64,000 bases of DNA. It comes from a virus. Its lineage: Duplodnaviria; Heunggongvirae; Uroviricota; Caudoviricetes. Location of the stretch: the IMG/VR virus record IMGVR_UViG_2724679538_000004, positions 1-64,000 of that record; one strand, written 5' to 3'. Shown in pieces: positions 20,084-21,436 of the stretch. A program made the position numbers and the translations under genes. Each line of letters opens with the position of its first letter. Within the stretch, counting starts at the first letter, position 1. The notes under the pieces are model-generated. The model made no database searches. It saw only the letters and a list, made by a program, of their open reading frames with translations, and was not told the origin of the DNA.

Positions 20084-21436
20084 TTACACCAATTTATTTA
20101 ACTTAGCTATTTCATCTGCTATTATTTTATCCACTTCAAAGTAAATTTCTTTAAATAGTTTATCCTTATTTGAACTGCCATTTACATATAACAATGCACT
20201 ATAAAAAACATAGTCGTCAATTGTACTCTCTAATTGTGAGCCTGTTTTGTCAGAACAGGGATAAGCCATTGTAGAAAAAAACACATCTTCAAGTTTTATA
20301 AAATTGATATTTCTTGCTATACGATAAATATAATGATTTAGTAAAGTAATAACAGTACTTTTGTCAGCAATAGAGTAGATTCCTGAACGTTTTTTTAGTT
20401 TGTTTTTTGAACACAAATTATGCCCAATAATAACATATAACTTATCTATGCTATTCTGTAGCTCTTTGTTTGCAACACTCACATAATATTTAAACTCTTT
20501 CTCTATATCGCTTTTTAAAGAGTCAAATTTTTCTCGCAACATATCGCCTAGGGGAGATTTATAACTCCACAAGACAGCATGAGTAGCCCGTACCGTATCT
20601 ATTTTCTCAGGTTCTTTTGAGTAATTTATAAATCTTGAATCATTGCAGATAATTCTATGTTTTATATATTGCCGAACTAATGAGCGATAGTCACCGTTAA
20701 AAAGTTCCTGAACATCTAATTCTCTTTTTTTTGTCGGTAGCAATGTAGAACCTAAAAAAAACTCGTTTTCAAAAAAGACATATTTATTTAATAAATAATT
20801 AAGTTTTTCCTGATTATAAGACAACCTAGTACTATACTTGAGACCGAAAATGGCTATTATTAACATTACGTTGGACTCAATTGAATTACGCAATTGTTCT
20901 ACATAGAATTTCCTCATTTCTATAGCGGCGTTTGGGGCGTAGAACTCTTCATCTATATATTCTAATATTGTAATAATATGTTTGATATACCTAATTAAAA
21001 TTTGTTCTGATGTGACTGTATAAAAAATCTGTGGAAGTGAGTCAGTATTAAATTTTATTGTTATATTGTTATCTGTATTACTGGATAACTTACTGCTTAT
21101 CTTATTTTGCAATTTTACAGTTTGTTCAATTAATGTTTTGAGCCATTGATCAAATGATGACTTTCTCATCTCGATAAGCGAATCAGATGTTATCTTGACA
21201 GCCTTTAGCGCTGCTTTCGCGCTTTTTCTTGCCTCATAAGCATTCCATGCTGTAGCACAAAAAGCTGCTGTCGTAATAACACTACCAATCAAAGCTGTCT
21301 TATCTGTAACATCCAAATCCCAGAACCAATCAGGCCATAAAATCAAAGCCGCAGATATTATTGGAAATAATAGAAAGACAATGAAAATCAAAACTGGCAT
21401 GTATGCGATCGCTCTATTAGTTATCAGTCGAGGCAA
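20084..21436 (-). CDS. AT-rich foreign gene: membrane-anchored protein of unknown function (candidate defence/exclusion protein)
   Basis: 450-aa ORF with two N-terminal TM helices; nucleotide composition far more AT-rich than flanking genes; no recognisable catalytic motif. Confidence 0.6.
   Translation of the reverse strand: MPRLITNRAIAYMPVLIFIVFLLFPIISAALILWPDWFWDLDVTDKTALIGSVITTAAFCATAWNAYEARKSAKAALKAVKITSDSLIEMRKSSFDQWLKTLIEQTVKLQNKISSKLSSNTDNNITIKFNTDSLPQIFYTVTSEQILIRYIKHIITILEYIDEEFYAPNAAIEMRKFYVEQLRNSIESNVMLIIAIFGLKYSTRLSYNQEKLNYLLNKYVFFENEFFLGSTLLPTKKRELDVQELFNGDYRSLVRQYIKHRIICNDSRFINYSKEPEKIDTVRATHAVLWSYKSPLGDMLREKFDSLKSDIEKEFKYYVSVANKELQNSIDKLYVIIGHNLCSKNKLKKRSGIYSIADKSTVITLLNHYIYRIARNINFIKLEDVFFSTMAYPCSDKTGSQLESTIDDYVFYSALLYVNGSSNKDKLFKEIYFEVDKIIADEIAKLNKLV

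What the first reader, a model, noticed from the sequence alone, without database searches (positions are those of the whole stretch)
20084..21436. Strongly AT-rich foreign gene encoding a 450-aa membrane-anchored protein: candidate defence or exclusion factor
This - strand ORF is visibly far more AT-rich than everything around it (by eye about one third G+C or less, against roughly half elsewhere), which marks recent horizontal acquisition. The protein has two N-terminal TM helices and a large cytoplasmic domain with no motif I recognise (no Walker A, no obvious nuclease or NTase signature). It sits between the tRNA cluster and the recombinase module, a typical cargo position. Single AT-rich membrane-tethered genes in prophages are often abortive-infection or superinfection-exclusion factors, so this is my best candidate for an undescribed function.
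Basis: partly seen in the sequence, partly recalled or inferred. Interest (0 to 1): 0.75.

Follow-up and report, generated by a model that had tools for sequence, protein, structure and literature searches.

The report
Divergent AbiC-like gene in phage-plasmid slot
The AT-rich gene is real and encodes a membrane-anchored protein from a divergent branch of the AbiC ("putative abortive infection") family, sitting in a swappable single-gene cargo slot of an SSU5-type phage-plasmid, so it is a plausible but untested anti-phage gene of a known kind, not a new kind of system.

Summary
A minus-strand ORF at 20084-21436 is the lowest-G+C stretch of the 64-kb window (0.308 vs 0.451, z -4.35). The true start is the ATG at 21400, giving 438 aa rather than 450. 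The element is an SSU5-supergroup phage-plasmid, not an integrated prophage.

The protein has one clear N-terminal TM helix, a second marginal one, and a ~380-aa basic, all-helical, probably cytoplasmic domain. It scores below threshold on Pfam putAbiC (PF16872: 18.8 bits, cut-off 22). Its family profile nevertheless retrieves 94 full-length relatives, and 68 of them carry PF16872. The link to lactococcal AbiC is limited to a 57-column core (hhalign 54%, E 1.3e-4) plus shared architecture. PADLOC does not detect the protein, and no structure match is informative.

The gene is a self-contained cassette (20078-21581) between tRNA-Ser and grxA. In related plasmids the same slot holds alleles 51% and 32% identical, or unrelated genes. 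A relative occupies the P2 Z/fun exclusion locus in a Citrobacter prophage.

Caveats: this allele replaces the family's near-invariant His94 with Thr, low G+C is a family trait and does not show recent transfer, and no phenotype has been tested. Verdict: a new member of a known kind, of moderate interest.

The parts
20084..21400 (-). abiC-like CDS, 438 aa (ATG at 21400, TAA stop at 20084-20086)
   Evidence: ORF. The start is set by the alignment of homologs and by the RefSeq annotation of the 96.8%-identical E. albertii gene. phrog_18168 E 3.5e-123. putAbiC E 0.0024.
21401..21436 (-).
   Evidence: No homolog has the 12 extra residues. The TTG lies 3 nt downstream of the TATAAT box of a promoter-like site.
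21439..21467 (-). Promoter-like site CTGTCA-17-TATAAT, about 40 nt upstream of the ATG
   Evidence: Consensus scan, 10 of 12 matches. The number of such sites in the region is no higher than in shuffles, so this is positional plausibility only.
20056..20075 (.). G+C-rich hairpin (AAAGGGGC-TTCA-GCCCCTTT) with T-runs on both strands, a likely bidirectional terminator 9 nt after the stop codon
   Evidence: Terminator-like scan found 4 overlapping calls against 0.6 expected; sequence. The hairpin lies inside the conserved left flank shared by all slot variants.
20078..21581 (.). Exchangeable cassette: the AT-rich ORF plus a 181-bp divergent promoter region
   Evidence: Pairwise blastn against L003, L004 and L005 shows homology stopping at 20077 and resuming at 21582 (21570 for L005).
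21335..21397 (-). TM helix 1 (residues 2-22)
   Evidence: Kyte-Doolittle 19-residue mean up to 3.13; summed Hessa dG -4.0. Helix 2-20 in the AF2 model.
21236..21295 (-). Probable TM helix 2 (residues 36-55), continuous with a long juxtamembrane helix to residue 106; this is the most conserved part of the family
   Evidence: KD 1.11 and dG +3.6, both marginal. Acidic loop before it and basic segment after it. AF2 helix 31-106. Highest conservation block.
20765..21010 (-). putAbiC core (residues 131-212)
   Evidence: Pfam PF16872 positions 2-74 of 80, 18.8 bits. hhalign to the lactococcal AbiC clade covers residues 134-189. Near-invariant Y138, L146, Y166, R171, I174, A183, L204, F209, F210 are all kept.
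21119..21121 (-). Codon ACT = Thr94, where 91 of 95 family members have His (LLEQHN motif)
   Evidence: Column counts on A4; DNA read.
20087..20764 (-). Fast-diverging C-terminal half (residues 213-438), the candidate specificity or sensor region
   Evidence: Identity to distant slot alleles is about 20% here, against about 48% for residues 1-106. Lowest column conservation. Well-folded helical model, pLDDT mostly 80-95.
19816..19902 (+). tRNA-Ser(UGA), the left landmark of the slot
   Evidence: ARAGORN. Conserved next to the slot in L003 and L004.
21582..21827 (+). grxA glutaredoxin, the right landmark of the slot
   Evidence: PF00462 E 4.2e-11. Annotated GrxA in all relatives.

Best explanation
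The gene encodes a single-gene, membrane-anchored anti-phage protein of the AbiC/AbiP ('putAbiC', PF16872) superfamily. An SSU5-type phage-plasmid carries it as exchangeable cargo.

Shown:
- It is an autonomous, reverse-oriented cassette. It has a promoter-like region and ends at a terminator hairpin.
- It sits in a slot between tRNA-Ser and grxA. Related plasmids fill that slot with deeply diverged alleles of the same family or with unrelated genes.
- The protein has an N-terminal hydrophobic anchor and a large all-helical basic domain.
- It is homologous to proteins that carry the putAbiC domain.

Inferred:
- It is expressed from its own promoter while the element is maintained as a plasmid.
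- The N-terminal hairpin places the ~380-aa domain on the cytoplasmic face of the inner membrane.
- The fast-evolving C-terminal half recognises a component of an incoming, unrelated phage.
- The conserved juxtamembrane helix and putAbiC core then block phage development after DNA entry.
- By analogy with lactococcal AbiC (reduced major-capsid-protein production) and AbiP (RNA/ssDNA binding, disturbed early-to-late switch), the most likely effect is interference with phage gene expression at the membrane. Direct membrane damage is the alternative effector route.
For: Homology:
- putAbiC hit at E 0.0024 over positions 2-74 of 80 of the model.
- 5 of 13 close relatives hit it on their own, best 3.2e-6.
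- The family profile retrieves PF16872-bearing proteins at E 1e-44 to 1e-122.
- 68 of 94 full-length relatives from the exhaustive search carry PF16872, and no other Pfam family recurs.
- PADLOC AbiC and AbiP models hit 7 and 4 of those relatives.
- hhalign against the lactococcal AbiC clade aligns the same core, Prob 54%, E 1.3e-4.

Architecture: it matches the published description of AbiC (two TM helices plus a helical soluble domain) and AbiP (one TM helix) (PMC13064643).

Cargo behaviour:
- Sharp cassette boundaries.
- At least five slot states among relatives.
- Absent from phages Cyrano and SSU5 themselves.

Context of relatives:
- P2 Z-region (phage-exclusion locus) beside a TIR cargo gene.
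- Next to an N6-methyltransferase in a relaxase-bearing island.
- Next to a YobI-type ATPase, HigB and an integrase.

Selection and conservation:
- dN/dS 0.405 against the 95% allele.
- Conservation gradient with a conserved N-terminus and variable C-terminus.
- Soluble domain pI 9.05.
Against: - The query is below Pfam's gathering score (18.8 vs 22 bits) and gets no PADLOC hit at E <= 10.
- The link to the experimentally studied lactococcal AbiC covers only about 57 columns, and a broad HMM fails on the lactococcal protein.
- A lactococcal AbiC-like protein 38% identical to AbiC gave no protection when tested (PMC11381338), so homology does not guarantee activity.
- This allele has Thr in place of the near-invariant His94.
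- TM2 is only marginally hydrophobic, so the topology is not settled.
- No fold match suggests a biochemical activity.
- The promoter-like match is no better than chance frequency.
- I found no phage-challenge data for any enterobacterial family member.
Confidence: 0.6

Rival explanations
1. It is a superinfection-exclusion protein that acts at the envelope. It would block DNA entry or receptor function for incoming phages, without an abortive, post-entry mechanism.
For: - The protein is membrane-anchored.
- A family member occupies the position of P2 fun(Z), a 'phage exclusion' gene that blocks T5.
- It is single-gene, reverse-oriented cargo placed after a terminator, like fun(Z).
Against: - About 85% of the protein is a large, basic, probably cytoplasmic domain.
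- P2 Fun(Z) itself is unrelated (hhalign Prob 2%).
- The characterised relatives AbiC and AbiP act after DNA entry (PMC13064643).
Confidence: 0.15
2. It is an inactive or functionally drifted allele. The family may be defensive, but this copy has lost activity through the His94-to-Thr change and is hitch-hiking in the slot.
For: - Thr94 is unique among the 95 aligned family members, where His is present in 91.
- The allele is rare: one PLSDB plasmid and a 31-member cluster.
- dN/dS is 0.405 overall and 0.54 in the C-terminal half, on few substitutions.
Against: - The ORF is intact in both sequenced variants, which share T94.
- All other near-invariant positions are kept.
- dN/dS below 1 suggests continuing constraint.
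- Three other family members also lack His at this position, having Asn.
Confidence: 0.15
3. It is not a defence gene. It would be a membrane protein serving the phage-plasmid itself (lysis timing, maintenance, host-physiology conversion) or a counter-defence factor.
For: - Weak PHROG hit to a holin family (E 0.046).
- Another slot occupant is a Gp49/Sf6 gene 66 family protein of unknown role.
- The mechanism of the whole AbiC family is unknown.
Against: - The gene is dispensable and replaceable by unrelated genes in otherwise collinear elements.
- It lies in the replication/recombination region, among the ligase, tRNAs, grxA and integrase, with no lysis gene among its listed neighbours.
- The only recurrent family signal among relatives is putAbiC.
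- The holin hit is not significant.
Confidence: 0.1

Closest known systems
Enterobacterial 'putative phage abortive infection protein' (Pfam PF16872 putAbiC-bearing proteins of 420-480 aa, e.g. P0012 Citrobacter, P0021 Pectobacterium)
   Same: - Full-length or near full-length homology (E 7e-16 single-sequence; 1e-46 to 1e-122 with the profile).
- Same length class, N-terminal hydrophobic anchor, and conserved juxtamembrane helix plus putAbiC core.
- AT-rich cargo genes in mobile elements.
   Different: - Only 20-27% identical.
- The C-terminal half is essentially unalignable (9-16% identity).
- The window protein is below the Pfam cut-off and has Thr for the His of the LLEQHN motif.
Lactococcus lactis AbiC (Prf; Durmaz et al. 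1992) and the AbiC/P group as defined in PMC13064643
   Same: - Single-gene system.
- N-terminal TM helices followed by an all-helical domain with no recognisable catalytic fold.
- Shared putAbiC core (hhalign E 1.3e-4).
- AT-rich, plasmid- or MGE-borne.
   Different: - About 100 aa longer.
- Similarity is confined to about 57 columns.
- The Gly-rich block conserved after the core in the lactococcal clade (RGLGLGIELIGTNLFGDE) is not aligned.
- No phenotype is known here, whereas AbiC lowers major-capsid-protein production in P335 phages.
Lactococcus lactis AbiP (membrane-anchored, RNA/ssDNA-binding Abi protein)
   Same: - Membrane anchor plus a soluble helical domain.
- The PADLOC AbiP model hits 2 of 23 and 4 of 94 family members.
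- The soluble domain here is basic, pI 9.05.
   Different: - AbiP has one TM helix.
- The window protein gives no hit to the AbiP model.
- Nucleic-acid binding is untested.
Phage P2 Fun(Z) lysogenic-conversion / T5-exclusion gene and the P2 Z-region
   Same: - Same kind of locus: a non-essential, reverse-oriented cargo gene placed after an operon terminator in a temperate element.
- A homolog of the window protein replaces fun(Z) in a Citrobacter P2-like prophage.
   Different: No sequence relationship (hhalign Prob 2%). Fun(Z) is 528 aa.

Membership tests
Pfam PF16872 (putAbiC) | Protein scores at or above the curated gathering threshold (22 bits) on the PF16872 HMM | tested here: not met
   18.7-18.8 bits, E 0.0024-0.0026, covering model positions 2-74 of 80.
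Pfam PF16872 (putAbiC) | Transitive homology: the protein's own family profile retrieves PF16872-positive proteins significantly and specifically | tested here: met
   - P0012 (PF16872) at E 7e-16 with the single sequence.
- Seven PF16872 proteins at 1e-44 to 1e-122 with the profile.
- 68 of 94 full-length relatives from the exhaustive search carry PF16872, and no other family recurs.
Pfam PF16872 (putAbiC) | Conserved core residues of the wider family are retained | tested here: inconclusive
   Y138, L146, Y166, R171, I174, A183, L204, F209, F210 and E211 are kept. H94, present in 91 of 95 members, is Thr, and N95 is Val.
Lactococcal AbiC / AbiC-P group | Sequence similarity to the lactococcal AbiC clade | tested here: inconclusive
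   - hhalign A2 vs A3: Prob 54%, E 1.3e-4, 57 columns only.
- Against the single sequence: Prob 9%, E 0.0036.
- The broad HMM gives no significant score because of a bias correction of 47.8.
A p275A AbiC-like protein and its relatives were used instead.
Lactococcal AbiC / AbiC-P group | N-terminal transmembrane helix or helices (two in AbiC, one in AbiP) followed by a soluble helical domain | tested here: met
   - TM1 is clear and TM2 marginal.
- 109 of 115 family members have no hydrophobic segment after residue 110.
- The AF2 model is all-helical, pLDDT 81.9.
- Family definition taken from PMC13064643.
Lactococcal AbiC / AbiC-P group | Structural superposition on the AbiC/AbiP soluble domain | not testable with these tools
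   No pairwise structure aligner is offered, model coordinates are not exposed, and the afdb50 library is unavailable.
Lactococcal AbiC / AbiC-P group | Single-gene system sufficient on its own | tested here: met
   Genetic organisation only: the exchangeable cassette holds one ORF between a promoter-like region and a terminator. Sufficiency for a phenotype is untested.
Lactococcal AbiC / AbiC-P group | Abortive-infection phenotype (phage resistance with reduced late-protein production or cell death) | not testable with these tools
   Requires phage challenge experiments.
PADLOC AbiC / AbiP models | Detected by the PADLOC-DB AbiC (PDLC02343) or AbiP (PDLC02351) HMM | tested here: not met
   No hit at E <= 10 for the query. 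Only 7 and 4 of the 94 relatives hit these models.
P2 Fun(Z) exclusion protein | Sequence homology to Fun(Z) | tested here: not met
   hhalign Prob 2%. Only the locus type is shared.

The most novel reading that the evidence does not exclude
The tRNA-Ser|grxA interval of SSU5-supergroup phage-plasmids is a dedicated, previously undescribed single-gene immunity slot. Deeply diverged AbiC-like alleles are exchanged as cassettes. They share a conserved membrane/stalk effector module and differ in a hypervariable C-terminal sensor half, so each plasmid lineage gets a different anti-phage specificity. On this reading, the His94-to-Thr allele represents a mechanistic variant of the family. Because standard defence finders miss the family, these common clinical plasmids would carry far more defence content than surveys report.
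Probability: 0.25. Interest if true: 0.6.

Novelty: new member of a known kind. Interest (0 to 1): 0.4.

Why it matters

An enterobacterial branch that sits as a clean, promoter-to-terminator cassette in a common E. coli/Klebsiella/Salmonella phage-plasmid is a tractable system. It comes with a natural allelic series (95%, 51% and 32% identity) in the same genomic slot. That series can be used to ask what AbiC-type proteins sense and what they do.

The finding also shows that PADLOC misses this branch. A published DefenseFinder survey of SSU5 phage-plasmids likewise lists no AbiC, so defence content in clinically prevalent SSU5-type plasmids is probably under-counted.

If the gene has no phenotype, the finding reduces to an ordinary AT-rich cargo gene of unknown function.

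Tried and rejected
- tblastn of the 450-aa protein and of P0009 against 50,697 phage records gave no match, although phrog_18168 matches strongly. Presence in records deposited as phages could not be shown.
- PDB sequence search with the family profile returned only noise, best E 0.096.
- A broad HMM built from 126 family members, scored against all L010 ORFs, did not single out the lactococcal AbiC-like protein because composition bias cancelled the score. I therefore do not claim full-length homology to lactococcal AbiC.
- I tested the helical periodicity of conservation in residues 36-100 as evidence for a conserved oligomerisation face. The peak was at 98 degrees, but permutation gave p = 0.19, which is not significant. 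I dropped the argument.
- P2 Fun(Z) as a homolog is rejected.
- The weak holin PHROG hit (E 0.046) and the other weak Pfam hits (NXPE4_C, BLOC1S3, NapE) are treated as noise.
- No Rfam family lies inside the cassette.
- The alternative 298-aa slot occupant is unrelated to this protein and has no Pfam or PADLOC hit.
- The hotspot-annotation preprint 10.1101/2024.10.15.618418 does not mention SSU5 or this slot.

Full report
OBSERVATION

The ORF reported at 20084-21436 on the minus strand exists exactly as described. Its G+C content is 0.308 against 0.451 for the whole window. It is the single lowest stretch among all 1317-nt sliding windows (z = -4.35). GC3 is 0.267, against 0.43-0.53 in the neighbouring ligase, grxA, integrase and toxin-antitoxin genes. 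At this composition stop codons occur at roughly 8% of codons, so an open frame of about 440 codons is not a chance event (my arithmetic: about 1e-15).

The start needs correcting. Every homolog begins MP(V/I/F)L at the ATG at 21400, and RefSeq annotates the 96.8%-identical Escherichia albertii gene from that ATG. The TTG at 21436 lies 3 nt from a TATAAT box. The product is therefore 438 aa.

WHAT THE ELEMENT IS

The window is not a classical integrated prophage. A 24-kb stretch matches phage Cyrano at 90.9% over 98% of its length and Salmonella phage SSU5 at 80.7% over 71%. The region around the gene matches hundreds of non-mobilizable plasmids of about 105-115 kb from Escherichia, Klebsiella, Salmonella and Shigella. 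This is an SSU5-supergroup phage-plasmid.

ANATOMY OF THE LOCUS

Pairwise alignment with four related plasmids and one metagenomic contig shows conserved sequence up to window position 20077 and again from 21582, which is the first base of grxA. Everything between is replaced as a unit.

The left flank ends in a G+C-rich hairpin (20056-20075) with T-runs on both strands, 9 nt beyond the stop codon. The cassette itself holds the ORF and a 181-bp AT-rich divergent region. That region contains a CTGTCA-17-TATAAT site about 40 nt upstream of the ATG. The number of promoter-like matches in the region is no higher than in shuffles, so that site is plausible by position only.

The gene is transcribed against the direction of all its neighbours.

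Among relatives, the same slot holds:
- this allele (one PLSDB plasmid, E. albertii pEA26_1);
- a 432-aa allele, 51% identical;
- a ~420-aa allele, 32% identical (P0009, 301 member sequences);
- a plus-strand 116-aa Phage_gp49_66 protein fused to the grxA start;
- an unrelated 298-aa minus-strand protein with no family hit;
- other states of different length.

In total 139 PLSDB plasmids carry a family member, 110 of them full-length. Only one is more than 60% identical to this allele.

THE PROTEIN

Residues 2-22 form an unambiguous TM helix. Residues 36-55 are rich in Ala, Thr, Ser and Gly and only marginally hydrophobic. They are preceded by an acidic, aromatic-rich loop (1+/4-) and followed by a Lys/Arg-rich stretch (7+/3-). 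That charge pattern fits an N-in/C-in hairpin with the large domain in the cytoplasm. The topology is inferred, not shown.

AlphaFold2 on a 23-sequence alignment gives mean pLDDT 81.9 and pTM 0.70. The fold is almost entirely helical, with one long helix (31-106) running from TM2 into the soluble part. The soluble part has pI 9.05.

Conservation is highest in TM2 and the juxtamembrane helix (residues 36-100). It is next highest in residues 131-212 and lowest in the C-terminal half. In that half the distant slot alleles are about 20% identical, against about 48% in the N-terminus.

FAMILY ASSIGNMENT

Pfam putAbiC (PF16872) matches residues 131-212 over model positions 2-74 of 80, at 18.8 bits and E 0.0024, which is below the 22-bit cut-off. 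PADLOC gives nothing. PHROGs gives phrog_18168, of unknown function, at 3.5e-123.

The link is established by transitivity:
- Five of 13 close relatives hit putAbiC on their own.
- The single sequence finds a Citrobacter PF16872 protein at 7e-16.
- The family profile finds more PF16872 proteins at 1e-44 to 1e-122.
- In an exhaustive search of 1.84 billion representatives the profile finds 138 proteins.
- Of the 94 full-length ones, 68 carry PF16872 at E <= 1e-3, and no other Pfam family recurs.

PADLOC's AbiC and AbiP models recognise only 7 and 4 of those 94. That explains why this branch escapes defence annotation. Consistent with this, a 2025 DefenseFinder survey of SSU5 phage-plasmids lists AbiH, PrrC, PD-T4-3 and other systems but no AbiC.

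RELATION TO THE EXPERIMENTALLY STUDIED AbiC

I could not obtain the pTN20 AbiC sequence. I used the AbiC-like protein of L. lactis plasmid p275A (PF16872, 32 bits) and 22 relatives.

The profile-profile comparison aligns only the putAbiC core: 57 columns, Prob 54%, E 1.3e-4. A broad HMM of the enterobacterial family does not score the lactococcal protein once composition bias is removed.

My own fold searches were equally uninformative.

CONTEXT OF RELATIVES

- P0012 lies in a P2-like Citrobacter prophage between the tail-fibre assembly gene and the sheath gene. In P2 that interval holds fun(Z), annotated as a phage-exclusion gene that blocks T5. The Z-region and the orf30 region are known sites of acquired genes in P2-like phages (PMC3091744).
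- In the same prophage the orf30 position holds a TIR-domain gene.
- P2 Fun(Z) itself is unrelated to the family.
- P0021 sits directly after an N6-methyltransferase gene in a relaxase-bearing island in Pectobacterium.
- P0014 sits beside a YobI-type ATPase, a HigB toxin and an integrase.

These are the kinds of neighbourhoods where anti-phage genes are found. This evidence is circumstantial.

MECHANISM

Shown: the gene is a self-contained, replaceable, single-gene cassette. It encodes a membrane-anchored helical protein of the putAbiC superfamily. It evolves under some constraint (dN/dS 0.405 against the 95% allele, on 14.5 synonymous and 23.5 non-synonymous changes). Its N-terminal module is conserved and its C-terminal half is fast-diverging.

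Inferred: the protein is expressed during plasmid carriage. The variable half senses a product of an incoming phage. The conserved module then arrests phage development after entry. The most likely route is interference with phage gene expression, as reported for AbiC (less major capsid protein) and AbiP (RNA/ssDNA binding, disturbed early-to-late switch). Membrane damage is the alternative.

I put about 0.6 on the general claim that this is an anti-phage protein of the AbiC/P type. I put considerably less on any specific effector step.

CAVEATS

- The family's most conserved polar residue, His94 in an LLEQHN motif (91 of 95 sequences), is Thr in this allele and in its 95% sibling. This may mean altered or lost activity.
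- A lactococcal AbiC-like protein gave no protection when tested (PMC11381338).
- The low G+C content does not date the acquisition. All slot alleles, however diverged, are 31-33% G+C. The Pectobacterium gene (0.295 vs 0.407 for its locus) and the Lactococcus gene (0.26 vs 0.355) are similarly AT-rich relative to their surroundings.

NOVELTY AND SCORE

This is a new, sub-threshold member of a known but mechanistically obscure family, in a cargo slot that I did not find described. It is not a new kind of system.

Interest is moderate (0.4). The value lies in a tractable E. coli entry point to the AbiC mechanism, and in showing that common defence finders miss this branch on clinically prevalent phage-plasmids.

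Noticed in passing
window 21955-22919 (+): Two overlapping ORFs (182 aa at 21955-22503; 141 aa at 22494-22919) lie between grxA and the integrase. Relatives L001-L004 have only about 210 bp there, so this is an extra ~1.2-kb insert. The 141-aa product is a YafO-family type II toxin (PF13957, E 4.6e-21). The upstream 182-aa ORF has no Pfam or PADLOC hit and is the candidate antitoxin. This is a second variable cargo site right next to the AbiC-like slot.
   Followed up: partly
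window 19154-19811: The spacer between tRNA-Thr and tRNA-Ser is about 89% identical to the plp/upl region that follows tRNA-Thr in phage P1. It is much longer than in relatives L001 and L003, which suggests past exchange between P1-type and SSU5-type phage-plasmids. A sub-threshold Rfam STnc100 sRNA match (43.8 bits vs 47, E 2.7e-7) lies at 19666-19838, overlapping the start of tRNA-Ser.
   Followed up: partly
L004 3182-4078 (-), E. coli plasmid pMRY16-002_2: An alternative occupant of the same slot is an unrelated 298-aa protein, also minus-strand and AT-rich (G+C 0.309). It has no Pfam or PADLOC hit and no obvious TM segment. It is another uncharacterised cargo candidate.
   Followed up: partly
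L011/L012 1653-2477 (-), Citrobacter P2-like prophage: The P2-like prophage that carries the putAbiC homolog in its Z-region also carries a 274-aa CAP12-PCTIR_TIR domain gene in the orf30 region, between tail genes S and V. So two cargo sites of one prophage hold defence-type genes.
   Followed up: no
L003 3224-3574 (+) and many E. coli plasmids: The commonest short state of the slot is a 116-aa Phage_gp49_66 (N4 Gp49 / Sf6 gene 66) protein on the plus strand, whose stop overlaps the grxA start codon. In those plasmids grxA appears translationally coupled to the cargo gene. In this window grxA must instead rely on the cassette's divergent promoter region.
   Followed up: no
phages collection vs phrog_18168: The protein matches phrog_18168 at E 3.5e-123. 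Yet tblastn of this protein and of the common 420-aa allele finds nothing in 50,697 deposited phage records, while 139 plasmid records carry a family member. The source genomes of that PHROG are therefore unclear.
   Followed up: partly
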